Source: a virus (taxonomy: Duplodnaviria; Caudoviricetes). Taken from it: a DNA stretch of 56,614 bases. This document shows positions 20,104 through 56,614 of the stretch, one piece after another; the stretch's first letter is position 1, and each line of letters begins with the position of its first letter. Below the pieces are notes generated by a model. That model worked only from the letters and a program-made list of their open reading frames with translations. It did not search any database and was not told the DNA's origin. The stretch lies in the IMG/VR virus record IMGVR_UViG_3300005537_000031, positions 1-56,614 of that record, one strand, 5' to 3'. A program made the translations under genes and the position numbers.

Positions 20104-20829
20104 TCAGTGCCTCGCTCCGAAGCGACGAATCACTCCGCTGCCACGGCACACCGGACATGGAGCCTGAGACACGCCACCGTCGGGGAGTGCTACCTGCATG
20201 GTCCCGCTGCCACCGCACCTGCCGCAGGGATCGCTCGCCTGTCCTGCCTCGGCCCTGCGGAGATTGTTCATCGCCTTGCGTCGCGCGGCGGGAGTGTCGG
20301 CCATGTTCACCTGTACGGAGGCTTCCTCTACGAGGTCAGTGGAGTGCGCGTCTAACTCTGCTTCGGCTTCCGCTGCGATGCGAGTGGCTTCCGCTTGCGG
20401 GTCTTCACCCGCTTCAGCTTCCATCTCTTCCGTGGCCGAGGACTGAATCCTATCAGGTCTATGAGTTGTAACGTTGGCATGTTGCCCTCCTCCCGCAGCG
20501 TTCACCGCAAACATCTTCGTGTCTGTCGGTGTCACCAGCATCAGCGACTCCACATCGGCGGGGAGAGACTGCACCACGGCGGACACCACGCCCGAGAATG
20601 CCAGGTCGTGGATGCGCAGCACCGCGATGGCTCCGTGGCGAAAGAGAGACAGTACGGGTGGAGCAGCTTCGAGGGAGCGCGGGCCAGCGGTCGCGGATGC
20701 CGCTGGCTGAGAGGTTACGCTCCCACTGCGCGGGATAAAATGTCCCCACGAGTTACGTTGTCGTGGCGTCGTCGGCGGCGGTGCTGTGTTGGTCGGTGTC
20801 TGCATGGTTGTCTTCTTCCGGGTTGGCAT
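20104..20829 (-). CDS. Hypothetical protein with a C-terminal DnaJ-type zinc finger
   Basis: CGRCGGSG...CPVCRGSG. Confidence 0.6.
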   Translation of the reverse strand: MPTRKKTTMQTPTNTAPPPTTPRQRNSWGHFIPRSGSVTSQPAASATAGPRSLEAAPPVLSLFRHGAIAVLRIHDLAFSGVVSAVVQSLPADVESLMLVTPTDTKMFAVNAAGGGQHANVTTHRPDRIQSSATEEMEAEAGEDPQAEATRIAAEAEAELDAHSTDLVEEASVQVNMADTPAARRKAMNNLRRAEAGQASDPCGRCGGSGTMQVALPDGGVSQAPCPVCRGSGVIRRFGARH

Positions 20830-42483: not shown

Positions 42484-42743
42484 ACTGGCCTGAAATAGTT
42501 GAAAAAGTACGCACTGATCACAATGGCGTAATGTCGGTCGAATTGTTCTTCGGGCATGACGGGCATAACGTCTGCCGATTCAAAAGCTACGATGAATTGC
42601 TGGGCGAAGGTGATTCTGGCCGATCCATACAGGAAGCAGTAGAACGCTGCTATGAAGACTGGCAACTGGAAAGTGGCGCACGTTGGTTCGCAAAGAATCC
42701 AGAAGTTGCGACCGGGGACGCGCCAACGGAGAAGAAGCTGTGA
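42480..42743 (+). CDS. Hypothetical protein
   Basis: GTGA overlap. Confidence 0.55.
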   Translation: MNWPEIVEKVRTDHNGVMSVELFFGHDGHNVCRFKSYDELLGEGDSGRSIQEAVERCYEDWQLESGARWFAKNPEVATGDAPTEKKL

Positions 42744-43513
42744 AGCGAGTGGTGGTTTGGTTTTCGTGTGGGGCTGCCTCTGCTTGCGCTGCTAAGTTGG
42801 CTATTGAGCGTTTCGGGGGTCACTTCCCGGTGAAGGTGGTTTACTGCGATACGTCAATCAATGAGCACCCGGACAATAAGCGGTTTGCCCAGGATGTCGA
42901 GAAATGGCTTGGCACTGAAATTGAGCGCATATCCTCAAAGATGTATTCCAGTGTGGATGAGGTCATTGCCAAGAATAGCTACTTCGCGGGAGTCAGGGGA
43001 GCGAGATGCACCACGGAATTAAAGAAAAAGCCTCGCCATGAATATCAGGAGCCGGGAGATTTACACATCTGGGGCTACACGGTTGAAGAGCCAGAGCGGA
43101 TTATCCGTTTCAAAGAAAACAATCCGGAAACGAAATCATATTTCATCCTTGCGGGAAATGGGCTGACTAAGGATGACTGCAAAAACATGCTGCTAAATGC
43201 AGGAATAGCCCTCCCTGTCATGTATGGGTTGGGATTCAACAATAACAACTGCATAGGCTGTGGAAAGGCTGAATCGGTCGAATACTGGCAGCACATCAGA
43301 AAATACTTTCCTGAGATTTTTGCAAAGCGTTGCCAGCAAAGCCGGGATATTGGATGGCGACCACTGCGCCTGGGCAGAAAGAGAACCCGCTCATATTTGG
43401 ATGAACTGCCAATAGAAGAAACGGGTGAACCTATCACGGAAGACATTAGCTGTGGGCCGCATTGCGGAGTAGAAGGTTTGGCCGGGGACGCGCAGGGGGA
43501 GGGGCGGAAATGA
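42740..43513 (+). CDS. PAPS-reductase-like PP-loop protein
   Basis: VVVWFSCGAASA, CTTELKK, GFNNNNCIGC. Confidence 0.75.
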   Translation: MKRVVVWFSCGAASACAAKLAIERFGGHFPVKVVYCDTSINEHPDNKRFAQDVEKWLGTEIERISSKMYSSVDEVIAKNSYFAGVRGARCTTELKKKPRHEYQEPGDLHIWGYTVEEPERIIRFKENNPETKSYFILAGNGLTKDDCKNMLLNAGIALPVMYGLGFNNNNCIGCGKAESVEYWQHIRKYFPEIFAKRCQQSRDIGWRPLRLGRKRTRSYLDELPIEETGEPITEDISCGPHCGVEGLAGDAQGEGRK

Positions 43514-43577
43514 GCGTACTGCTAGATTTTAAAAACTGTCGGGTATCGCACTCCTGTTAGGCAGGAGAGGAAATTTT

Positions 43578-43790
43578 ATGTCGCAGATGAGAAAACGCGA
43601 AACGTGGCGCAAGAGGCAAGCCTACCTGACAGGAGTAGCGGCTCAGCGGCAATGTCCAGCATGTAAACGGAAGTCTGCCATGTCTGCGCTGCAAGTCGAT
43701 GCGGAGATGTTCATCGGCAAAAGAACCTGCCGATATTGCGGACATGTAGTTGAAGTTAAAGAGGGCGTAGCAGAAAGGACTGAGCCGTGA
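43578..43790 (+). CDS. Small zinc-ribbon protein
   Basis: CPAC...CRYC. Confidence 0.55.
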   Translation: MSQMRKRETWRKRQAYLTGVAAQRQCPACKRKSAMSALQVDAEMFIGKRTCRYCGHVVEVKEGVAERTEP

Positions 43791-44314
43791 GCATCTTCAA
43801 CAATCTCAAGAATGATATCGCCCCGGCAGTGGGAGAAGTGGAGAACCTGGTCCACCATCCCATTTATCGCACGCCGTGGTACGTGTCCGTGGTCGTCGAT
43901 GGGAAACTCTGGCGCGGCTCATGGCCGGATGCGGTCCCCCTGAAGATGCTGAAGTCGGGAGGCGTGGTAGCGTCGCTGAACTTCTGCTCCGAGCGTCAGC
44001 AGGATGACCTGATCCGCAGCTTTGGGATAGTGCCATATAACATTCCGGTGGAGGATAACACCGCGCCGACGGATGCGGATCTGGAGAAGGCAGTGGATAT
44101 ATTTGATTGGGTTACCGTTCCGGCCAATCCCATGATGCCCGGCGGCATCCTCTTCGCCCACTGCGAGCAGGGCATTGGCCGCACCGGCTGTTTCATCGCT
44201 GGCATCCGGGTGAAACGCTGCGGCTGGACTCCGCAACAGGCGCTGGATGAGGCGATGCATTATGGGCTGTCGCTGGAGAGTCAGAAGGCGTTCATCATGG
44301 GGCTTAAGGCATGA
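43787..44314 (+). CDS. Dual-specificity/tyrosine protein phosphatase
   Basis: HCEQGIGRTG (CX5R) and a PVEDNTAP acid loop. Confidence 0.85.
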   Translation: MSIFNNLKNDIAPAVGEVENLVHHPIYRTPWYVSVVVDGKLWRGSWPDAVPLKMLKSGGVVASLNFCSERQQDDLIRSFGIVPYNIPVEDNTAPTDADLEKAVDIFDWVTVPANPMMPGGILFAHCEQGIGRTGCFIAGIRVKRCGWTPQQALDEAMHYGLSLESQKAFIMGLKA

Positions 44315-44380
44315 GCCATCGCTGTCGTCCCATAAAATAAATGTGGCTCAAGCTGGTGGTGTTCTGGTATAGTGGACACC

Positions 44381-44935
44381 ATGAAAGAACGAAGCATTTA
44401 TCAGAAGGTTCTGCTGGCGACGCAACGCGATAGTCGCGGCATGGGAAGGCAAGATTTAGATGCCTACTTCGCAGGGTTTTTCGATGGAGAAGGCCACATC
44501 ACAGTCAGTCGAGATGTCAGGCGACCTTGGAGTTGTTATGTGGAAATCGGGGCCACGCAGAATGTCCTGACTCCGCTGCATATGCTACAGAAGTGTTACG
44601 GAGGTAAGGTTCATCTCAAGCACAGAGGAAAGCTTGATGTTAGCAAATGTAGTGTGTGGAGATGCAGCGGGAAGGATGCCATGTACGCGCTATATCGCAT
44701 GCTTCCGTGGTTGGTAGTTAAGCAGGAGAAGGCGCGTGTGGCCCTGATCGTGTTGCAGAATAGGCCCCTAAAGGAATCTGGGGGGCAGATATCTCCGCAT
44801 CAAAAGATGGCCATATCAAAGGCTCTAGCTAAGATAAAAGTAGTGGAGAGGGGAAAGAAGTGCCAGTTAGATGTAAACCAAGCTCCTGTGTTGGATGCCA
44901 ACTCCATTCCCACGGCACAGATTTCTCCGCTATAG
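44381..44935 (+). CDS. Free-standing LAGLIDADG homing endonuclease overlapping the pol start
   Basis: AYFAGFFDGEGHI; LPWLVVKQEKA; TGGTATAGT 7 nt before the ATG. Confidence 0.85.
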   Translation: MKERSIYQKVLLATQRDSRGMGRQDLDAYFAGFFDGEGHITVSRDVRRPWSCYVEIGATQNVLTPLHMLQKCYGGKVHLKHRGKLDVSKCSVWRCSGKDAMYALYRMLPWLVVKQEKARVALIVLQNRPLKESGGQISPHQKMAISKALAKIKVVERGKKCQLDVNQAPVLDANSIPTAQISPL

Positions 44936-47904
44936 AGGGAACAGGTGCTAACGGAGTTCTTCTTGTTGGGGAAGCCTCTGGGGAACATGAACAGAGGGAT
45001 CAACTCCCCTTTAGAAATTATGCTCCTGCTGGCGCTGTGCTCGAGCGTTGCCTGCGCCGTATGGGTCTCGACAGAAAACAATTCGCTATTACAAACTGCA
45101 TCCGTTGTCGCCCACGCAAGAACTGGCTGGAAGGCGCGCCGTGGGAATACTCCGCACTCCGCCAGTGCAGGCCGAACCTCGACGCCGCAATAGCCATGTA
45201 TAAGCCTCGGTGTATTATCGCGCTTGGTGGCGTGGCGCTGCGAGAGCTGACAGGGGAGGCGGGAGAGGCTAGGGGAGTCACGCATCTTGCGGGCTATGTT
45301 CTGCCTCTCGCCAGCGGAACCAGGCATAACTACATCTGTGGGATGTGTGAAGGTAAGAATAAACAATGCGACAACTGCATGGGAACAGGATGGGTATCTA
45401 GGTCAGCTACGACAGGGCAGATTCCCGTGCTGGCCGATTTCCATCCCTCCTATCTCCGCCGGGGCAAGGCCTCGCACCAGGGAGTGTTCAGCCGAATCAT
45501 CCAGCGGTCGCTGGCCATCGCTAGTGGTCGTGATCGTAACTTCATGTGGGGAGTTGATCCAGATGATTCGGCCACGTGGAACACCCCTGACGGTGGGCGA
45601 CTACAATACTGGACGCATCCCACGACCGATCAGGCGAGATCCGTGTTGCGATACCTCGAAGACAATCCCAATCTCCCGGTGGCGAAGGATATAGAAACCA
45701 GCGAATCGTCATCGCTGGACGAGGACGCGCGGGAGGGATTCAGCGACACGGAAGTGAGACTCTTCCAGCTGAGCTATCAGCCCGGGACCGGGATCGCGAT
45801 TCCCTACACGGGGGAGTTCAAAGACATCGTGAGACGAATGCTGCATCTCAGGAACCCGTTCTACGGTCATAACTGGGACAATTTCGATCATAAGGTGTTG
45901 CGCGCAGCTGCAGCGCGGGAGGGATGGGTTTATGCACCGTCGGTTAGAGTCTTTGACACACTTGATATGTTTCATCACTGGCAGCCTGATCTCCCAGCGC
46001 ATCTGCAATTTGCTTCCAGCTTCGTCAATTTTCCATTTCCGTGGAAGCACCTCTCAGGTACTAATATTGAGTTCTACGGTATATGTGATGTGGATGCTGG
46101 TCTTCGGCTCGGACAGTTCCTCGAAGCCACGCTGAAGAAGGACAATCTTTGGGGTTCGGGAAATGAATATTCCCTGACCACTGGCTACACCGGACAGGAG
46201 CGTGAGGTGAGGCCGGTGCTCGCAGCGATGGAAGATCGCGGGGTGCCGATTGACGACGCTGCGAGGATCAAGCTGGGAGCGGAGTTCGAGGCTGCGCAGC
46301 GGGAGCTAGGCGAGGAGTTGGCCAAGCGTGCTCCGGTGGAGTGTCAGAGGGTGCATCCGAAGGAGGGGTATAAGACTATTCCTCCCGAAGTCAGGCAATG
46401 GCAAAAGACTCAAGTGGAAATTATCATAGATAACGAGCTGCCTCTACATCGCTACATGGAAGCTGGGGAAGATGGAGAGTCATATACATACGCCATAAGG
46501 GAGTTTTATGTTGCTGGGTTGGATGAGTCTGGAAATCCCACTATAAATAAAGTCCGTCGCATTTGCCGCGTGTATGATTTTAACCCGAACTCGGCGCCGC
46601 AGCTGATAGCCTACATGAAGTCGAAGGGACACAAAGTCCCCAAGTCCAAGATCGAGGACGAGGAAGGCAACCAGAAAGACACCACCGCAGCCAAGGAACT
46701 CCAACGCCTGGCAGTGAAGACCGGCGATGACTTCTACCTGAAGGTGATCGAGTACCGCGGGCTTACGAAACTTCGCGGAACCTACGTGGATGGCTTCCGT
46801 CCCGGGAGTGATGGCCGGGTGCATACGACGTTCACGTTTCAGACGGCGATTGCGCAGCTCAGTGCGCGCAACCCAAACACGACGAACTTCCCGAAGCTCA
46901 AGCCCACGCCCAAGTTAGCCAAGGCTCTCCGTAGCATCGTGTGCGCGGATCCGGGTCATGTTCTCGCCGAGGTGGATTTTAAGTCCTGTCACGTCATCAC
47001 ACTGGGCCTGCTCGCGGGAGACGCTAACTACACTCGTCTCGGCAGACTGGACATTCACTCAGCAGTTGCTGGCCACTTCCTAGGACTATGGAACGTCAAG
47101 GAAATACTGAAGGAATCGGACGCAGAGTTGATGGCACGGTTTAAATGGTTGAAGTCCGATCCCGAGCGCAAGCGTGTTCGCGATGATCAGGCCAAGCACG
47201 GCATTCTCGGGATAGGTAACGGACTTCGCTCCAAGGGACTATTCGAGCGGTATATGGAGAACTTTCCAGCGCGCCAGTGTCCTCAGTGTGGAGGTAGTGG
47301 CAAGGTTTCTGGCCTGCGCGGGCTGAAACACTGTCCTGAGTGTAAAGCGACTGGCAGACAACCGGGGCAGCGCGTTGCAGACTTGGTATTGGAAACCTGT
47401 GAGGACATATTCGATAAGATATTTATATATCAGGAACTCCAACGCAAAGAGGCACATGAGACACAACGCCTGCGCACACCCTTCGGCCATCAGCGGAGGT
47501 TCTACGAGGTATATCGCTGGGACGGCAGGAAGGGAATCTGGAGTCACGGAGACCAAGCTGAGGAAGCCGTGGCCTATCGCCTCGCGAACACGGCCCATGC
47601 GCACATGCGTGAGGTAATGAAGGAACTATCGAGACTCGGGCTGGATGAGAAGTACGGACTTTTCAATATGGTTCATGATTCACTAATGTGGTCCTTCCCA
47701 GAACCGTTGCTGAAATCCTTCGCCAGAGAAGTATATCCCGTGATGACCGCCGAGTCCAAGGTGATGCCGGGGCTATGGCTGGGCGTAGAGGGATCATGGG
47801 GCAGACGTTGGTCGGAGATGAAGGATCTAGAGGTGCCTGTGGAGTTGACACCGCGGACTACAATAGCGGCAGCTACTCAGAACATGGAGGCATCCGCTGT
47901 ATGA
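44860..47904 (+). CDS. Family-4-like uracil-DNA glycosylase / 3'-5' exonuclease / family A DNA polymerase fusion with an atypical active site
   Basis: UDG: GEASG..E..PF, TN..RCRP, HPS. Exo: DIE, HN..FD, Y...D. Pol: GRVHT, DIH, VHDS. Confidence 0.88.
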   Translation: MPVRCKPSSCVGCQLHSHGTDFSAIEGTGANGVLLVGEASGEHEQRDQLPFRNYAPAGAVLERCLRRMGLDRKQFAITNCIRCRPRKNWLEGAPWEYSALRQCRPNLDAAIAMYKPRCIIALGGVALRELTGEAGEARGVTHLAGYVLPLASGTRHNYICGMCEGKNKQCDNCMGTGWVSRSATTGQIPVLADFHPSYLRRGKASHQGVFSRIIQRSLAIASGRDRNFMWGVDPDDSATWNTPDGGRLQYWTHPTTDQARSVLRYLEDNPNLPVAKDIETSESSSLDEDAREGFSDTEVRLFQLSYQPGTGIAIPYTGEFKDIVRRMLHLRNPFYGHNWDNFDHKVLRAAAAREGWVYAPSVRVFDTLDMFHHWQPDLPAHLQFASSFVNFPFPWKHLSGTNIEFYGICDVDAGLRLGQFLEATLKKDNLWGSGNEYSLTTGYTGQEREVRPVLAAMEDRGVPIDDAARIKLGAEFEAAQRELGEELAKRAPVECQRVHPKEGYKTIPPEVRQWQKTQVEIIIDNELPLHRYMEAGEDGESYTYAIREFYVAGLDESGNPTINKVRRICRVYDFNPNSAPQLIAYMKSKGHKVPKSKIEDEEGNQKDTTAAKELQRLAVKTGDDFYLKVIEYRGLTKLRGTYVDGFRPGSDGRVHTTFTFQTAIAQLSARNPNTTNFPKLKPTPKLAKALRSIVCADPGHVLAEVDFKSCHVITLGLLAGDANYTRLGRLDIHSAVAGHFLGLWNVKEILKESDAELMARFKWLKSDPERKRVRDDQAKHGILGIGNGLRSKGLFERYMENFPARQCPQCGGSGKVSGLRGLKHCPECKATGRQPGQRVADLVLETCEDIFDKIFIYQELQRKEAHETQRLRTPFGHQRRFYEVYRWDGRKGIWSHGDQAEEAVAYRLANTAHAHMREVMKELSRLGLDEKYGLFNMVHDSLMWSFPEPLLKSFAREVYPVMTAESKVMPGLWLGVEGSWGRRWSEMKDLEVPVELTPRTTIAAATQNMEASAV

Positions 47905-51070: not shown

Positions 51071-51862
51071 CTATCCGAACGTAACCGTCAGATTGTCAAT
51101 CGTCGCCTTGTACGGCTTCGCATCCGGTGTAGCGTCCAGCTGATACGCCGCGTTGCAGTACGGCGAGTTCGTCTGGCTCTGACTCACGGGATGGCTGAAC
51201 GTCACAGGAGTCGCTACGCCATCCACGATTACCTCGGTGAACCGCACCGTCTTGTCATCGCAGGTCGCGTCCACCTCCAGGTGGATCGACTTCCCGGCGG
51301 TGACCTTCGCCGTCACTCCGAGGGGCACCCACACCTTCTTCACGTAATCGAACCCCCGGATGATCCATCCCCCCGCGACCGGCAGGAGTTGCGGACCGAC
51401 GTTGATGACCACTCCGGAGGATTTGCGAATCTGATAATCCAGCTCCACCGCCTGCACGGACGTGAGCGGATCCATCGCGTAGTCGCAGGAAATGGAAAAC
51501 TTGCTGGCGGTTTCCATGATCGATTTCTGATCTGCGGTCAGCGTGGGATACAGCCTCCGCAGGTTATAGCAGTTGTCAGACTCGCCGCCAGCGAGCTTCG
51601 CTGGCTTGAAGTCAGCGGTGGCTGGTGATCCCGGCACGATGGCCACCGTCCCATGCGGGCCTGTCTTCGGCGCGCCAGGGGAGCGAGCCTCGTACCAGAG
51701 TGTTTCCGGCGCGACCGATTGAATGCTGGATAGCGTGACCGACTTCGGCGCGGTGAGGTCGGCGAGCTCCTGCTTGAGCTGCGCGATCAGCTGGTCTTGC
51801 GCGTCGGAAATCGTGGACGCCGCCGTCGCGTCGTCAATGATCTTCTGATATTCCGGTTTCAT
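51071..51862 (-). CDS. Coiled coil plus concanavalin-like beta-sandwich protein
   Basis: AAGGAG before MKPEY; beta-rich, with QAVELD. Confidence 0.45.
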   Translation of the reverse strand: MKPEYQKIIDDATAASTISDAQDQLIAQLKQELADLTAPKSVTLSSIQSVAPETLWYEARSPGAPKTGPHGTVAIVPGSPATADFKPAKLAGGESDNCYNLRRLYPTLTADQKSIMETASKFSISCDYAMDPLTSVQAVELDYQIRKSSGVVINVGPQLLPVAGGWIIRGFDYVKKVWVPLGVTAKVTAGKSIHLEVDATCDDKTVRFTEVIVDGVATPVTFSHPVSQSQTNSPYCNAAYQLDATPDAKPYKATIDNLTVTFG

Positions 51863-51980
51863 AAAATTCTCCTTCTGCCTGCGACCGTAGGGGACTTCCC
51901 CATAGCCATGACACAGCGGACACTTCCGCATCTTTTGAACATTCGACCTGGGCATGAGAGTTGCTGCATTATCTCACTCT

Positions 51981-52151
51981 TCACCCTTTGATGACGAATC
52001 CAAAGACGTGCCAGCCGAGGAGGAATATCAGTATCCCCAGCAGCAGGTGGCCGCCGAACGGACGCCAGTTGCCCGGAGCGGGTTGGTACATCCAGCCTCC
52101 AAAGAGAACCCACACGATGAAGAGAAACCAGAACAACATGCTTATTGGCAT
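51981..52151 (-). CDS. 56-aa two-TM membrane protein
   Basis: MPISMLFWFLFIVWVLFGG...LLLGILIFLLGWHVFG; GGAGG RBS. Confidence 0.6.
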   Translation of the reverse strand: MPISMLFWFLFIVWVLFGGWMYQPAPGNWRPFGGHLLLGILIFLLGWHVFGFVIKG

Positions 52152-52185
52152 AAAGCCTCCTTAGTTTTCGTCAATCGCTGCAGCA

Positions 52186-52431
52186 TCATGGGATGCACCG
52201 AATCTGCCAGCTGAGCGTGGCCGGTGTCAAGGCGATGATGGCGGTGATGCGGAGGGTCACGGTGTTGGCTGCGGATATCCATGCGATGTAGAGTGCCCCC
52301 GCTCCGAGGTCGCCATTCGGAGTGGCCACGCAGGCCATGCCTGGCTGTGCGCTAGTGACGGTGACTGCCTGAGTGGTGGAGGTTCCGAGGAGCATGGCCC
52401 CGGGGGACCACGATGGAAGAGTAGCATTCAT
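52186..52431 (-). CDS. Small beta-rich tail-associated protein
   Basis: VTVTSAQPGM...ISAANTVTLRI. Confidence 0.5.
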   Translation of the reverse strand: MNATLPSWSPGAMLLGTSTTQAVTVTSAQPGMACVATPNGDLGAGALYIAWISAANTVTLRITAIIALTPATLSWQIRCIP

Positions 52432-52434
52432 AGA

Positions 52435-55161
52435 TTAATTCCCCATGCACATCACAACGTACTTATATACGTTGGCGGCTGTCGGCGTTCCGTTTACGGT
52501 TACGACCAGCTGGGTCGCAGAGGTTGTCCAAGTGTGCGGTGGAGTGTTGAACGGAGTGGTAATGTCATTCCGCGAAATGATGCACTGCGGAGCCGCTGTC
52601 CACGTACCATCCTTGAATGTCACGGTGATGGTGGGATTTGCTCCCGGCGTGGTTCCAGCTGTCACGGAGAAGCTGAACGCCTGATCGAATCCGGTTGCGG
52701 CTGAGACCGCTGGCCCGGTTCCCCATCCGGCAGAGAGGACAATCGCTGCGTCCGCTCCGGAGAATGCCGTGCCTTGATTGGCCTTGTAACGACGCTCGGA
52801 CACATCGCTAGTGGCAGAGTTGCCAACCGCGCTCAGAACGCTATTGCCGAATGTTCCGTTGTTATAGGAACACTTCAGCGTGTGTGCCGTGGAATCCCCA
52901 TAACAAACTTCCTTCCCCGCCGCGCCGGACGGAGCAGTGGTCTCCGTAACCAGCATGTCGGTTGTGATGGCACAGGTGTCGCAGTTCTGGACTTTTAGAT
53001 TCGGCACGGCGGTGGTGCTGGCGACGATGAACGGCGCGGTTCCGGTCGTGACTGTGCTTTGAATCTGACCGCCGAATTGTGATGTCTCCGTGCCTATGGT
53101 CTTGATAGCGAATTTAGTTCCCGCTGTTGGGCCTGCTTCAATTCTTATACCATCCCATTCAGTGATGGTTGATCCTGCTCCCACGGTTGGAGTGTTGACA
53201 TGAAGCCCAGTATTCAATGCTTGGGTGAATGCCGCTGCTGCTGTGTCCGCTCGGGCGTAGATACCGGAACCTTCGGATGTGCTTGTAGATGATGTTACGG
53301 GCGCGGATTGGATGCCGATTTGAAATGCTCCGGTAAGATTTGAGTTGTTCTCTAAGATACCCGTTCCAGCCACGGCCCCCGCTCCAACTCCAAGGTTGGT
53401 CACGCGATAATTCCCTACTGTACTCATCCCTGTCGCGTCATAGACAGCATAATTAGAGGCTGCTGCAAACGTGTTGACCGCCGTGTCTGTCAGGCCTGGA
53501 GCGTAGATCGTGGAACCTGTAAGTGTAAGGTTGTTTGCTCCGGTGCCGCTGCCTGAATTCTTACCCTCATATAAAATACTTCCGCGAATCGTTGCTGTGC
53601 CACTTAGAACATTGAATAACGGCTGAAGTGTCCCATTGATCTGCGGCATGTTGAAGTAAGAATCCGATACCGTGATTCCATTGCCCACAACTATCAGTCC
53701 GGCAGCAGTAGGAGCCACAGCAGTCATGCGTGCATCCATGGCCTCGACCGTGGTATTGAGAGTGAGCGGGAAATCGAAGCCTTCATCCTGCCCCTGAAGG
53801 GTGATGTTGGTGGGAACGTTCGAGCCTGAGTTGATGACCACAGCCGAGCTGTGATTCGTGCCGATAACTCCGTTTAATATCTCAGTGTCCTTTTCAGATT
53901 CAAAATCAATGATCCCACGCAAATCCATTGCCTGTTTTGTCCATGCCTGTAGCACCACGCCATGCCCAATTTTTACCTCCGACATTGAAGTGGGACATCC
54001 CGTGAGAAGCGTTTGATACGGGCTGGCAAGCGATAAATCATTAGTGGCTGAAATGAACAGTGGTAGATCACCAATATATCCGCCGCCTATAATCTGAAAT
54101 TGTTCAGCTCCTACGTTGTAAACCGGAACAGTTCCGACCGCCGTTGCCGCTGGCCGCGTGTCCATGTAAACCCAGACATTTTCTAACTTATTTTCTTCTG
54201 AAAAACAGAATGTTCCGACTCCAGTTGATGAACCATTGCTAACTGCGTTGTCTCTTCCAAAGAGAAACCCAATTTCGCTTGGAGTTGGGAGTCCAGAGGG
54301 AACGCGAATACTAAAGTTCTTCAGACGGGAACGGCCTGATCCTGTAGCATCCCAGACCGGCGTAGAACCTGTATTGCCTAGCAACTGCGTTCCGGTTAAG
54401 CCGAAGTCCTGCCCTGCGAGAGTAGTGGAAAATTCTTCATTTGAGTTCGACCCGTACACGTCAAGATTGGTCTTGTTTGTATCATTGATCGTCGTATTGA
54501 CGCGACATTTTCCTGAAGGTAATTGCACTCCGCCTTGTCCCGCTGCATAGGCATTTACTAGGCAAGCTGTGATTGCTGCTGAATCATCCGTTCCTGTGAG
54601 CGTCGTTCCGTTCCACGTCGCATTACAGACTACCCCGTCTGTCCGGCAGTCACGAATTACCTTGCTCACGTTCAGGCCACCATTGGCCGATACTACTCCC
54701 GCGAATGTTCCCACACCTGTGAGGCTGACGCTCGTCCCGGTTGCTGCCCCGATATTTGGCGTTACGAGAGTTGGAGTGTTTGCGAATACGAGAGCACCAG
54801 TCCCGGTTTCGTCGCTGATTACGCCTAAGAGCTGCGCCGATGTCGTGGACGCGAATGCTCCAAGGTTGTTGGAGTAGCTGGCCGCTGAGAACACTTCCGA
54901 CGTGCTGACCGTGGTTCCATTGTCTGTCACGCTGGAATTCCCCAGCACTCCCGACGCGCCGTTCGTGTACTTCGGCAGCGTGTTGGTGGTTCCTGTGCCA
55001 GTGTTGATTGTCCCGGCGGGGAGGTTGGCTGCGGTGACGTTGCCATTGGCATTGATGTTGCCGTCCGCCTGGAGATTGTTGACATGCGTAGTCTGGGCGG
55101 AGGCCACCGCCATGGTGAGTAGCATGAACGCGAGCGCGATACTGCATGGTCTTCTTGTCAT
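52435..55161 (-). CDS. Tailspike/receptor-binding protein with a beta-helix and an N-terminal signal peptide
   Basis: ATGA overlap at 55161; GTDDSAAITAC...VQLPSG beta-helix start; lower-GC centre. Confidence 0.75.
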   Translation of the reverse strand: MTRRPCSIALAFMLLTMAVASAQTTHVNNLQADGNINANGNVTAANLPAGTINTGTGTTNTLPKYTNGASGVLGNSSVTDNGTTVSTSEVFSAASYSNNLGAFASTTSAQLLGVISDETGTGALVFANTPTLVTPNIGAATGTSVSLTGVGTFAGVVSANGGLNVSKVIRDCRTDGVVCNATWNGTTLTGTDDSAAITACLVNAYAAGQGGVQLPSGKCRVNTTINDTNKTNLDVYGSNSNEEFSTTLAGQDFGLTGTQLLGNTGSTPVWDATGSGRSRLKNFSIRVPSGLPTPSEIGFLFGRDNAVSNGSSTGVGTFCFSEENKLENVWVYMDTRPAATAVGTVPVYNVGAEQFQIIGGGYIGDLPLFISATNDLSLASPYQTLLTGCPTSMSEVKIGHGVVLQAWTKQAMDLRGIIDFESEKDTEILNGVIGTNHSSAVVINSGSNVPTNITLQGQDEGFDFPLTLNTTVEAMDARMTAVAPTAAGLIVVGNGITVSDSYFNMPQINGTLQPLFNVLSGTATIRGSILYEGKNSGSGTGANNLTLTGSTIYAPGLTDTAVNTFAAASNYAVYDATGMSTVGNYRVTNLGVGAGAVAGTGILENNSNLTGAFQIGIQSAPVTSSTSTSEGSGIYARADTAAAAFTQALNTGLHVNTPTVGAGSTITEWDGIRIEAGPTAGTKFAIKTIGTETSQFGGQIQSTVTTGTAPFIVASTTAVPNLKVQNCDTCAITTDMLVTETTAPSGAAGKEVCYGDSTAHTLKCSYNNGTFGNSVLSAVGNSATSDVSERRYKANQGTAFSGADAAIVLSAGWGTGPAVSAATGFDQAFSFSVTAGTTPGANPTITVTFKDGTWTAAPQCIISRNDITTPFNTPPHTWTTSATQLVVTVNGTPTAANVYKYVVMCMGN

Positions 55162-55838
55162 AATGCCTGCTGCGAGCTGAAGGCGACGAGGTTGGTTCCA
55201 TCGAACACTCCGGCCTGCGAATTTATAGTATTGGCTGTGGTAATCAGGGACAGGAACCCCTTGATGTTCGAGGGATAGGCGAACGTGCGACCCCCCACGG
55301 CGTCCTCGATCAGCTTCAACACCACAATCGCACCAGCGGGGATGCCGCTCAACACCGGAGCGGTGACATTCCCCGTGAGTGTCATCTGGAAGGTAATCAT
55401 CGGGACCTTGCTGTTTACTCCAGGGCCTGCGAGAGCTGGAGTGGCAGAGAATGGGACGACGGTGAGCACAGGCCCGCCTCCGGAGGTCACGAGGGACGCC
55501 GCTGCCGCTTGCAGAGCCGCGCTGATGTCCTGCGAGTTCCCGGTGATGGTGATGAGCGTGTTGAACGACACTGGCGGGGTCGTACTGCTGACCACGTTGA
55601 ATCGCCATTGCGACGGCGTGGGGGTGATGGTGTCATTCCCCGCGAGAGGCATCGACATCACTCCGAAGGAATCGGTGAACCCAGGGACCACAACCTCGAA
55701 CTGTCCCTGTGGCACGCCGCCGCTGGTGTACGGCCCCGCGCCGGGAGTGGTGTTCTGACCCACGAACGAGGCGATTACCTGCGAGTTGACGTAAGGATTA
55801 CCCGCTGGATCCCGTACTGTGGCCGTCACCAGTGTCAT
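55158..55838 (-). CDS. Tail fibre adaptor/structural protein
   Basis: TGATG overlap start MTLVTATVRD; QMTLTGNVT...EDAVGGRTFAYP module. Confidence 0.6.
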   Translation of the reverse strand: MTLVTATVRDPAGNPYVNSQVIASFVGQNTTPGAGPYTSGGVPQGQFEVVVPGFTDSFGVMSMPLAGNDTITPTPSQWRFNVVSSTTPPVSFNTLITITGNSQDISAALQAAAASLVTSGGGPVLTVVPFSATPALAGPGVNSKVPMITFQMTLTGNVTAPVLSGIPAGAIVVLKLIEDAVGGRTFAYPSNIKGFLSLITTANTINSQAGVFDGTNLVAFSSQQAL

Positions 55839-56143
55839 CAGTAGACGCTCGCAGTGTAGGCCCCGCCCCCGGCGGCTGCCTGCTGGAATATGCCGTTCGA
55901 CGCAGGCATGTCGAAGGTGATGACGGTGTTTGCCGCTGTAGCCGCAGGGATGATGCCGATGATCGTTCCGCTGGCTGCGGAGGCGTTGTCGAAGAACACG
56001 ATGGCGTTGGCCCCAATCACCGTAGTGACCAGTACCTTGCACAGCCGCGATTGCGCGGCACGAATGGCGATCCCCGCGACGGCCTGCGCGTTGGTTACCG
56101 CCACGGTGAGGTCGCCGCCTCCGGAATATTGATGGACTGGCAT
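55838..56143 (-). CDS. Small virion beta protein
   Basis: FFDNASAASGTIIG...FDMPASNGI. Confidence 0.55.
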   Translation of the reverse strand: MPVHQYSGGGDLTVAVTNAQAVAGIAIRAAQSRLCKVLVTTVIGANAIVFFDNASAASGTIIGIIPAATAANTVITFDMPASNGIFQQAAAGGGAYTASVY

Positions 56144-56148
56144 GGGTT

Positions 56149-56614
56149 CTAGTCTCCTGTCTTGGCTGGAGTATCTCCTTCCAGCTCATCCCAATAAACT
56201 GTCTTTGTACTTCCATTCGGCATGCGGACTGTAACCTTACCCGCTGGGAACGCCACGACGGTAACATCCTCGCCGTTCAATCTCACCAGCTTGCCATAGG
56301 AACTTACGATGTCCTTCTGTGACATCTTGCGTAGGCGGGACACGTCGCGGGAGGACTCTGCCGTCGCTGGTGATTCATCTGCGGGAGGTTTCTTCGTGCT
56401 CCCGAATTTCAATTCCAGCGATCGCTGCACGGCTTGGGACTGCTCGGCGGGAGTCAGTTCGTTGAACTTCTTTCCGGGGAACAGCTCTTCGGTCGCACGG
56501 GCGAGGTGGCTAGTATCTCCCTTTGGCTTGGCCAGTTCCTTAAGCCTCGCAGCCTCGGGGTCACCGCCGGACTTCGCCGCGGCGTCCGCTTTCGCCTCGG
56601 CGGCGCGGATTCGC
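56149..56614 (-). CDS. C-terminal part of the large internal virion protein (continuation of 1..1635)
   Basis: The frame is open to the window end; same composition as 1..1635. Confidence 0.55.
   Translation of the reverse strand, partial: RIRAAEAKADAAAKSGGDPEAARLKELAKPKGDTSHLARATEELFPGKKFNELTPAEQSQAVQRSLELKFGSTKKPPADESPATAESSRDVSRLRKMSQKDIVSSYGKLVRLNGEDVTVVAFPAGKVTVRMPNGSTKTVYWDELEGDTPAKTGD

What the first reader, a model, noticed from the sequence alone, without database searches (positions are those of the whole stretch)
46800..47700. Family A polymerase with the steric-gate and minor-groove network replaced
Seen, aligned by eye to E. coli Pol I: TATGRLSS becomes TAIAQLSA (R668 to Q), PNLQN becomes PNTTN, motif A DYSQIELR becomes DFKSCHVI (steric gate E710 to H), motif B KAINFGLIYG becomes KHGILGIGNG (F762 to L, Y766 to N), and RAAINAPMQG becomes EEAVAYRLAN (R841, N845 and Q849 lost). 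Both catalytic Asp, the DIH histidine, the motif B Lys and all exonuclease motifs are kept. Established: R668, E710, Y766 and Q849 form the network that reads the nascent base pair and excludes rNTPs, and they are highly conserved in PolA. Inference: coordinated replacement points to a new activity rather than decay. Options include rNTP or primer synthesis (no primase is recognisable here), modified-nucleotide use, or template-independent or abasic-site synthesis coupled to the fused UDG.
Basis: partly seen in the sequence, partly recalled or inferred. Interest (0 to 1): 0.85.

Follow-up and report, generated by a model that had tools for sequence, protein, structure and literature searches.

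The report
Phage DNA polymerase with histidine sugar-gate
The only recognisable DNA polymerase of this uncultured phage is a Pol I-type enzyme from a very large, unstudied group in which several normally fixed residues that check the sugar and the minor groove are replaced as one conserved set, and nobody has measured what this does.

Summary
Window 44860-47904 (+) encodes one 1014-aa protein: a family-4 UDG, a 3'-5' exonuclease and a family A polymerase. Both catalytic Asp, the motif B Lys, the motif C His and Exo I-III are kept.

This is not decay. Q and H are present in 120 of 120 close homologues, and in 130/142 and 135/137 more distant cluster representatives. Synonymous codons vary at these sites, and gene-wide dN/dS is about 0.1. 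Known UDG-PolAs (N4, SP-10, Nachito) keep the canonical residues. Only two related representatives carry R+E+Y, and the data favour them lying outside a single Q/H clade.

No tested phage record (GenBank phages) held a close relative, and I found no paper describing the clade. The claim of a new activity is untested: His is the presumptive sugar gate of E. coli Pol III, and no thymidylate-synthase homologue (5hmU route) was found in 24 related genomes.

Most likely this is an active proofreading replicase with a rebuilt pocket. The scan has reported this same clade several times on other DNA, with the same verdict.

The parts
44860..47904 (+). Gene for the UDG / 3'-5' exonuclease / family A polymerase fusion (1014 aa, GTG start, stop included)
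   Evidence: ORF list and translation; Pfam UDG + DNA_pol_A; homologues align from residue 1-4; GGAGAGG about 9 nt upstream of the GTG; AF2 model mean pLDDT 92.7
44860..45549 (+). Family-4 UDG domain with catalytic-looking motifs (GEASGE with E38, HPS with H195) and four Cys (10, 13, 83, 103) in the Fe-S positions
   Evidence: phmmer alignments to solved family-4 UDGs 4zbx, 1l9g, 1vk2, 1ui0; E38, N79, C83, C103, H195, P196 nearly invariant in 109 sequences
45307..45423 (+). Cys-rich insert (CxxC...CxxC) inside the UDG domain, poorly modelled
   Evidence: translation; pLDDT 52-54 over residues about 150-180
45688..46089 (+). Exo I-III motifs of the proofreading domain (D277/E279, N338/D343, Y406/D410)
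   Evidence: profile alignment to Klenow exonuclease domain; invariant or nearly invariant columns
46843..46887 (+). TGR-motif region reading TAIAQLSA...PNTTN; Q666 (46855-46857) stands for Klenow R668
   Evidence: Q 120/120 and 130/142
46975..46998 (+). Motif A DFKSCHVI: catalytic D706; H711 (46990-46992) stands for steric-gate E710
   Evidence: H 120/120 and 135/137
47194..47223 (+). Motif B (O-helix) KHGILGIGNG: K779 kept; L783 for F762; N787 for Y766
   Evidence: K 120/120, L 120/120, N 118/120
47278..47355 (+). DnaJ-like CxxCxGxG zinc-ribbon insert in the fingers just after motif B
   Evidence: weak Pfam DnaJ_CXXCXGXG hit at residues 807-832; C807, C810, C825, C828 nearly invariant in 25 close relatives; pLDDT about 95
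47560..47589 (+). Motif 6 EEAVAYRLAN: E901, A905, A909 stand for R841, N845, Q849; N910 is conserved next to it
   Evidence: E 118/120, A 95/120 (S 25), A 87/120, N 115/120
47671..47682 (+). Motif C VHDS: H939 and catalytic D940 kept, S941 for E883
   Evidence: H 120/120, D 120/120

Best explanation
This is the phage's replicative, proofreading DNA-dependent DNA polymerase. It is fused to a probably active family-4 uracil-DNA glycosylase. It belongs to a very large, uncultivated and apparently undescribed clade of UDG-PolAs in which the pocket around the nascent base pair was rebuilt once and then kept. Shown: homology, fold, retention of the catalytic and exonuclease residues, conservation and covariation of the substituted set, and its absence from the three known UDG-PolAs compared. 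Inferred: H711 takes over the sugar-gate role of E710 by packing against C2' of the incoming dNTP, as the presumptive His760 gate does in Pol III alpha. Also inferred: Q666 keeps a minor-groove hydrogen bond to the primer terminus in place of R668. The Y766 and Q849 positions then form a second, coupled layer with alternative solutions: F or N with A/S, L or Y with Q. By analogy with SP15-like enzymes, the UDG domain probably removes uracil from the template ahead of the active site. The enzyme most likely still makes DNA from dNTPs; how far fidelity or sugar selection is changed is unknown.
For: - **Homology and fold.** Pfam DNA_pol_A and UDG score above their cut-offs. The profile hits Klenow at E 3e-46. 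The AF2 model has pLDDT 92.7, with blocks of 96-98 at all motifs, and superposes on Klenow, Bst and Taq with TM (target-normalised) 0.74-0.81.
- **Catalytic residues kept.** D706, D940 and K779 are each 120/120, and H939 is 120/120. The Exo motifs are invariant or nearly so.
- **The substituted set is conserved.** Q666 and H711 are 120/120 among homologues of 53-82% identity. They are 130/142 and 135/137 among the 146 sequences taken from a search that found 640 clusters at E<=1e-30. 35 of 35 IMG/VR loci with a pol match carry H, and 34 of 35 carry Q.
- **Selection.** Synonymous codons vary at the sites: CAG 23/CAA 9, CAC 22/CAT 9, AAC 14/AAT 4, from a regex count that also caught a few off-target matches. 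dN/dS is 0.115 and 0.079 against the two closest loci.
- **Known UDG-PolAs are canonical.** N4, SP-10 and Nachito read GRLSS, D..(S/Q)LE, F...Y; SP-10 and Nachito also keep motif 6 (RQAVN.PIQ), while N4's motif-6 stretch did not align to it.
- **Coupled states.** The only two representatives with E711 also have R666 and Y787. A tree that holds the 138 H-rows together is 72.75 log-likelihood units better than the free quick tree, p-AU 0.864.
- **Second-layer covariation.** For positions 787 and 909 there are 19 independent pairs; 909 goes the same way in 12.5 and the opposite way in 0.5, median p 0.0005.
- **Intein-like inserts.** 19 inserts with C...N|C/S boundaries sit in or next to the rewired motifs: GQLS, PNxQN, motif A, and motif B in 8 representatives. 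This is what is expected of essential active-site motifs (recalled).
- **Precedents.** His is the presumptive gate in Pol III alpha. HDS occurs in the active Tt72 polymerase.
- **UDG domain.** Its catalytic motifs are conserved. In phiLo and YerA41 the fused UDG excises template dU and the polymerase bypasses the abasic site.
- **No other polymerase found.** None was seen among the 48 ORFs scanned with Pfam or PHROGs.
Against: No member of the clade has been assayed, so activity and selectivity are inferred. R668, E710, Y766 and Q849 substitutions in Klenow or Taq are reported to lower activity or change fidelity and sugar selection (recalled; E710 via the reference list seen), so an unchanged phenotype is not guaranteed. 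I could not read model coordinates, so no distance from H711 or Q666 to the substrate was measured. The lineage shows no recognisable primase or ring helicase in 29 records, which leaves room for an unusual role in initiation. The free IQ-TREE quick search nested the R/E/Y pair inside the H clade, and the FastTree node placing it outside is weak (0.39).
Confidence: 0.6

Rival explanations
1. The rebuilt pocket was selected for a changed substrate range. Weaker minor-groove checking or an altered sugar gate would let the enzyme copy or incorporate non-canonical nucleotides (minor-groove- or sugar-modified), or bypass abasic sites made by its own UDG more readily than canonical PolAs.
For: The replaced residues are the ones reported to read the minor groove and the sugar (passages of PMC10201439; details recalled). 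The set is clade-wide and coupled. The UDG domain looks active in the whole clade. In Taq the Y766-equivalent Tyr directs the A-rule at abasic sites (recalled; entry 3lwl appears), and here it is Asn.
Against: There is no thymidylate-synthase homologue in this genome or in 23 relatives. The neighbouring PAPS-reductase-like and phosphatase genes occur in 0 and 1 of 38 related loci. The conserved neighbours are only an exonuclease, Sak4, a 292-aa protein and an SF1 helicase. SP15-like enzymes do uracil excision plus abasic bypass with a pocket the authors describe in canonical terms (E710-type gate, O-helix Phe). Proofreading is intact, which fits a faithful replicase.
Confidence: 0.25
2. The polymerase makes its own primers or RNA (rNTP use or de novo initiation), which would explain a phage lineage without a primase.
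For: In six frames, 0 of 29 clade-bearing records (the window, 23 relatives and 5 more distant ones) have a Toprim_2 or Prim-Pol match, 0 of 24 have Toprim or D5_N, and none has DnaB_C above its cut-off. AEP DNA_primase_S was searched in the window only and gave no match. 23 of the 29 records are at least 90% complete. PolA and single-subunit RNA polymerases share a fold (recalled).
Against: His is as bulky as Glu and is the presumptive dNTP-selecting gate in Pol III alpha, whereas T7 RNA polymerase has Gly at this position and needs the motif B Tyr that this clade lacks (recalled). The 3'-5' exonuclease is intact. Pfam also misses almost every structural gene here (1 weak hit in 20 ORFs), so a divergent primase could be hidden, for example in the unassigned 681-aa ORF.
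Confidence: 0.05
3. The polymerase domain is a decayed or non-catalytic scaffold for the UDG and exonuclease.
For: Several residues usually called essential are missing.
Against: Both catalytic Asp, the O-helix Lys and Arg, and the motif C His are invariant or nearly so. dN/dS is about 0.1. The substituted residues are themselves invariant. It is the only polymerase found in a 94%-complete genome. Intein-like inserts target these motifs.
Confidence: 0.03

Closest known systems
SPO1-like UDG-PolAs (e.g. Bacillus phages SP-10 and Nachito)
   Same: Same three-domain order, with a family-4 UDG that keeps its catalytic motifs, a proofreading exonuclease and HDS in motif C. They are the best full-length cultured-phage hits of the canonical-state relative P0251, at about 22% identity over 88-96% of its length.
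   Different: They keep GRLSS, DYSQLELR, KA.(G/N)FGL.YG and RQAVN.PIQ. They sit next to a dUMP hydroxymethylase or thymidylate synthase gene, which is absent here and in 23 relatives. tblastn with the window's protein does not reach them at E<=1e-5.
N4-like UDG-PolA (cluster #17 of Czernecki et al. 2023, PMC10201439; phage N4 DNAP, EF056009)
   Same: N-terminal UDG-fold domain + exonuclease + PolA. Profile-profile match has probability 98.9%, E 2e-17, 638 columns. N4-like phage polymerases are among the best BFVD structural matches.
   Different: Identity is 21%. N4 has the canonical R, E, F and Y. Its UDG is reported to have lost its catalytic residues (passage), whereas here they are kept.
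SP15-like UDG-PolAs (YerA41, phiLo; Missoury et al. 2026, PMC13697223)
   Same: Fused active UDG. They give the best experimental model for what the UDG domain does: excision of template dU ahead of the polymerase, abasic bypass by the A-rule (sections read).
   Different: Those enzymes are described with a CTD of about 80 aa and two large inserts, with YerA41 at 1306 aa, and come from phages with hypermodified thymine. Their active site is discussed in canonical terms. Not aligned here; none appeared among the 60 listed sequence hits or the 50 rows printed of the Foldseek search of solved structures.
Bacterial Pol I large fragments (Klenow, Bst, KlenTaq)
   Same: Best solved-structure matches, Foldseek E 1e-22, TM (target) 0.74-0.81, with the same catalytic Asp, Lys and His.
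   Different: 16-20% identity, no UDG, and canonical R668/E710/F762/Y766/R841/N845/Q849.

Membership tests
Family A DNA polymerase (Pfam PF00476) | Significant match to the family profile and the Klenow-type fold | tested here: met
   82.7 bits against a cut-off of 34.3; profile against Klenow E 3e-46; Foldseek TM (target) 0.74-0.81
Family A DNA polymerase (Pfam PF00476) | Two catalytic Asp (motifs A and C), O-helix Lys, motif C His | tested here: met
   D706, D940, K779, H939 aligned to D705, D882, K758, H881; each 120/120
Family A DNA polymerase (Pfam PF00476) | Arg of the TGR motif (R668), marked as a highly conserved position in the 19-cluster scheme of PMC10201439 | tested here: not met
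   Q666; Q 120/120 and 130/142
Family A DNA polymerase (Pfam PF00476) | Steric-gate Glu (position A2, E710) | tested here: not met
   H711; H 120/120 and 135/137
Family A DNA polymerase (Pfam PF00476) | Motif B Tyr (position B4, Y766) | tested here: not met
   N787; wider clade F 83, L 19, N 17, Y 6 of 126
Proofreading 3'-5' exonuclease (DEDDy) | Exo I DxE, Exo II Nx(2-3)(F/Y)D, Exo III Yx3D | tested here: met
   D277/E279, N338/D343, Y406/D410 aligned to Klenow and invariant or nearly so
Family-4 uracil-DNA glycosylase | Motif A GE(A/G)PG-type Glu, motif B HPS His, four Fe-S cysteines | tested here: met
   GEASGE (Ser for Pro), HPSYLRR, C10/C13/C83/C103 aligned to 4zbx, 1l9g, 1ui0; phiLo catalytic E53 and H178 named. 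Activity itself is not testable here.
N4-like UDG-PolA (cluster #17) | UDG domain without catalytic residues; Phe at B3; clusters with N4 DNAP | tested here: not met
   UDG motifs kept; Leu at B3; 21% identity to N4 DNAP; no N4-like hit at E<=1e-5
SPO1-like UDG-PolA | Active-type UDG fused to a canonical PolA, in phages with a dUMP hydroxymethylase / 5hmU pathway | tested here: not met
   UDG part met; pol motifs differ from SP-10 and Nachito; no Thymidylat_synt match in the window or 23 relatives
SP15-like UDG-PolA | Insert 1, Insert 2 and an extra C-terminal domain of about 80 aa | not tested
   No SP15-like sequence was fetched. The length of 1014 aa against 1306 aa for YerA41 argues against membership.

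The most novel reading that the evidence does not exclude
The Q/H pocket is an adaptation that changes what the enzyme accepts: relaxed or re-aimed sugar and minor-groove checking. This very abundant group of phage replicases would then handle substrates that canonical Pol I enzymes reject (ribo- or sugar-modified nucleotides, minor-groove-modified bases, abasic templates made by its own UDG). In the extreme it would help a lineage with no recognisable primase to start or restart DNA chains.
Probability: 0.2. Interest if true: 0.85.

Novelty: new variant of a known kind. Interest (0 to 1): 0.6.

Why it matters
R668, E710 and Y766 are textbook residues of Pol I-type enzymes, and a 2023 classification marks them as highly conserved positions across 19 PolA clusters. 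A natural, abundant clade (hundreds of 50%-identity clusters) has replaced them as a linked set while keeping proofreading. This offers an evolutionary experiment on how sugar discrimination and minor-groove checking can be built differently. It also offers a source of polymerases with possibly useful substrate tolerance. The second-layer covariation (Y766 position with Q849 position) gives concrete mutant pairs to test.

Tried and rejected
- **Whole-length MAFFT of 150 representatives** timed out. I replaced it with an HMM of the polymerase domain and hmmsearch alignments.
I repeated it with the closer alignment A2.
- **Host clues are weak.** There were three MAG hits. Two are contigs of 2-4 kb. 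The third is only an exonuclease-domain fragment in a 2.5-Mb Acidobacteriota contig.
- **Cluster look-up** gave no informative names for 7 members; the one name given was 'uracil-DNA glycosylase family 4'.
- **Atlas searches.** The 681-aa ORF got nothing above lead level. The 566-aa ORF came out as a PD-(D/E)XK nuclease.
- **Pfam on seven long homologues** recognised a Hint domain only in P0029. The other inserts are called intein-like from their boundary residues alone.
- **Decay reading rejected**, and a specific link to 5hmU-type DNA rejected, for the reasons given under the rival explanations.
- **Free IQ-TREE quick tree** nested the R/E/Y pair inside the H clade. I do not rely on that, because the constrained tree is better.
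- **Literature searches** returned no paper, in the listings I read, that describes a PolA clade with His at the gate.
Full report
**What is there.**
- The window is a whole IMG/VR virus record of 56,614 bases. CheckV estimates it at 94% complete, and IMG/VR reports no end repeats.
- One ORF, 44860-47904 on the + strand, gives a 1014-aa protein.
- It carries a Pfam UDG domain (residues 32-204, 69.7 bits) and a DNA_pol_A domain (82.7 bits). It also matches PHROG 17, 'DNA polymerase'.
- The GTG start is preceded by GGAGAGG, and homologues align from residue 1-4. The 947-aa version on record in the protein collection (P0002) is therefore probably a truncated gene call.

**Are the equivalences right?**
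- phmmer against Taq aligns TAIAQLSA with TATGRLSS, PNTTN with PNLQN, DFKSCHVI with DYSQIELR, and DIH with DIH.
- A profile of 109 family members (A1) aligns to Klenow over the whole polymerase domain at E 3e-46. It adds motif B (K-x3-L-G-x2-[FN]-G against KAINFGLIYG), motif 6 (E-x-A-I-A-F-x-P-A-N against RAAINAPMQG) and motif C (HDS against HDE).
- The same alignment shows Exo I-III opposite Klenow's motifs.
- The AF2 model is confident (mean pLDDT 92.7, 96-98 around every motif). It matches Klenow, Bst and Taq structures with target-normalised TM 0.74-0.81.

**Conservation.**
- A word-indexed search with the polymerase half found 235 proteins. The 120 listed have 53-82% identity apart from the window's own entry.
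- I aligned P0001 with the 119 other listed proteins, leaving out P0002. Of 120 sequences: Q666 120, H711 120, K779 120, L783 120, N787 118, E901 118, N910 115, D706/H939/D940 120 each. A905 is A 95 / S 25, and A909 is A 87 / T 15 / S 12.
- An exhaustive phmmer search of 1.84 billion cluster representatives found 640 at E<=1e-30.
- Among P0001 plus the 145 listed representatives not already held, counting the sequences with a residue at each site: Q 130/142, H 135/137, L783 101/130. Position 787 is F 83, L 19, N 17, Y 6 of 126. Position 909 is A 77, Q 26, S 21 of 135.
- In 38 IMG/VR loci fetched with the close alignment, 35 of 35 with a polymerase match carry H and 34 carry Q. The two weak canonical PolA hits, L044 and L045, carry R and E.
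- A regex count shows both synonymous codons in use at Q, H and N, and four Leu codons. That count also picked up a few off-target matches.
- Gene-wide dN/dS (NG86) against the two closest loci is 0.115 and 0.079. dS is saturated for more distant pairs.

**Relation to known polymerases.**
- tblastn of the protein against 50,697 GenBank phage records gave only 11 records. None covers more than 31% of the query. Megablast of 10 kb gave nothing.
- The best BFVD models have 13-18% identity.
- UDG-PolA fusions as such are known. There is the N4-like cluster #17, with a UDG that has lost its catalytic residues. There are also SPO1/SP-10-like and SP15-like enzymes with an active UDG (PMC10201439, passages; PMC13697223, abstract and sections 15, 16, 19).
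- N4 DNAP matches the family profile with probability 98.9% but only 21% identity.
- N4, SP-10 and Nachito all read GRL(S/A)S, D(F/Y)(A/S)(S/Q)LE and F...Y. SP-10 and Nachito also keep RQAVN.PIQ.
- The rewiring is therefore not a property of the three known UDG-PolAs I compared.

**One origin, coupled sites.**
- Only two representatives (P0251, P0256) have E at 711. The same two have R at 666 and Y at 787. P0251 reaches 297 phage records by tblastn, the SPO1-like ones over nearly its full length.
- A FastTree tree of 143 polymerase domains rooted on N4 puts this pair outside a 138-leaf clade that is all-H (clade support 0.83; the node placing the pair has 0.39).
- An IQ-TREE quick search without the trait columns nested the pair on a long branch. 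The search with the 138 H-rows held together found a tree 72.75 log-likelihood units better, p-AU 0.864. A single origin is therefore favoured and not rejected.
- Within the clade, the Y766 and Q849 positions covary. The commonest pairs are F/A 69, L/Q 17, F/S 14, N/A 7, N/S 6. Of 19 phylogenetically independent pairs that differ at 787, position 909 goes the same way in 12.5 and the opposite way in 0.5 (median p 0.0005).
- The window has the N787/A909 solution.

**Other signs of a working active site.**
- Nineteen inserts of 120 aa or more in the representatives start with Cys and end in N followed by C or S. They sit after GQLS (4-5), after PNxQN (3), in motif A (2), in motif B after AKx (8), and once further on. 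Pfam recognised a Hint domain only in P0029, so the others are intein-like by their boundaries only.
- The UDG domain aligns to solved family-4 UDGs with the motif A Glu, the HPS His and four cysteines in place. These columns are nearly invariant across the clade.

**Context.**
- In the window's + strand arm the recognisable genes are: a UvrD-type helicase, an endonuclease VII-like protein, a PHROG 'topoisomerase', a PD-(D/E)XK nuclease, a Sak4-like protein, a RecD/Pif1-like SF1 helicase, two methyltransferases, a PAPS-reductase-like protein, a dual-specificity phosphatase, a weak LAGLIDADG match overlapping the polymerase start, and a glucosaminidase.
- Across the 38 related loci, only the nuclease (23), Sak4 (28), a 292-aa protein (21) and the SF1 helicase (28) recur. 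The PAPS-reductase-like gene is in 0, and the phosphatase and the 681-aa ORF in 1 each.
- Six-frame searches found no Prim-Pol, Toprim_2, AEP primase or thymidylate synthase in the window.
- They found none of Prim-Pol, Toprim_2 or thymidylate synthase in 23 relatives.
- They found no Toprim or D5_N, and no DnaB_C above its cut-off, in 24 records.
- They found no Toprim_2 or Prim-Pol, and no DnaB_C above its cut-off, in five more distant records.
- Caveat: of 20 further ORFs of this phage, including the presumed terminase, portal and capsid genes, Pfam matched only one, weakly. Absence by Pfam is therefore weak evidence in this lineage.

**Interpretation.**
- The evidence fits an active, proofreading replicase whose nucleotide pocket was rebuilt once and has been under purifying selection since.
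- Ser in HDS occurs in the active Tt72 polymerase (PMC9324360, passages).
- That the set creates a new activity is possible but has no direct support. Canonical UDG-PolAs already combine uracil excision and abasic bypass, and no thymidylate-synthase homologue (the 5hmU route) travels with the clade; other modification pathways were not screened beyond Pfam/PHROG scans of the window's ORFs.
- The statements about T7 RNA polymerase motifs, the Klenow R668/Q849 mutant phenotypes and Taq Y671 at abasic sites are recalled, not taken from a call.

**Earlier notes of this scan.** Look-ups made after I had formed this reading show the same clade reported many times on other genomes, with the same verdicts. 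Two notes say the swap arose more than once; in my sample a single origin is favoured. One note says it is not tied to primase loss; in my 29 records no primase was recognisable, with the caveat above.

**Verdict.** This is a new variant (an undescribed clade) of a known kind, the UDG-PolA replicases. It is interesting mainly as a natural re-engineering of a textbook active site whose biochemical effect is untested.

Noticed in passing
homologues P0122, P0125, P0185, P0250, P0242, P0159, P0212, P0200 (motif B); P0207, P0127, P0131, P0126, P0197 (GQLS); P0156, P0180, P0172 (PNxQN); P0243, P0162 (motif A); P0256: Nineteen intein-like inserts of 132-329 aa, with Cys at the start and N followed by C or S at the end, sit in or beside the rewired active-site motifs. 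Pfam sees a Hint domain only in P0029.
   Followed up: partly
window 47218-47220 and 47584-47586 (residues 787 and 909): Across the clade the Y766-equivalent and Q849-equivalent positions covary: F or N goes with A/S, and L or Y goes with Q. There are 19 independent pairs, sign test p about 0.0005.
   Followed up: yes
window 45307-45423 and 47278-47355: There are two Cys-rich zinc-ribbon-like inserts. One splits the UDG domain (low pLDDT). The other is a DnaJ-type CxxCxGxG pair right after motif B in the fingers. Both are conserved in the close family only.
   Followed up: partly
window 44372-44935 (+): A 187-aa ORF with a weak LAGLIDADG_1 match (E 0.0026) overlaps the first 76 nt of the polymerase gene. 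tblastn found it in 1 of 38 related loci.
   Followed up: partly
window 44860 versus database entry P0002: The protein on record for this gene is 947 aa, although homologues align from residue 1-4 of the 1014-aa reading. The shorter call would remove the first Fe-S cysteines and the UDG motif A.
   Followed up: partly
window 1-22111 and 51071-56267 (- strand): Pfam matched only one of 20 further ORFs at E<=0.001 (a weak DnaJ zinc-finger hit at 20104-20829). These ORFs include the long ones expected to be terminase, portal, capsid and tail genes. This is a very divergent phage lineage.
   Followed up: no
window 42683-44314 (+): A PAPS-reductase-like protein (PHROG 424, E 3e-46) and a dual-specificity phosphatase lie just upstream of the polymerase. 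They occur in 0 and 1 of 38 related loci, so they are not part of the conserved module.
   Followed up: partly
L003:10001-10510: A 2.5-Mb contig of an Acidobacteriota MAG holds only a 174-residue stretch (query residues 228-401, 49% identity) of this protein's exonuclease region. It may be a prophage remnant or a stand-alone domain.
   Followed up: partly
records behind L008-L043: 14 of 23 related genomes of 55-99 kb have direct terminal repeats. All 24 records tested lack recognisable Toprim or D5_N primase domains and DnaB-type helicase above cut-off; Prim-Pol and Toprim_2 were likewise absent from 23 relatives and the window. The recurring replication genes are an exonuclease, Sak4, a 292-aa protein, an SF1 helicase and the UDG-PolA.
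   Followed up: partly
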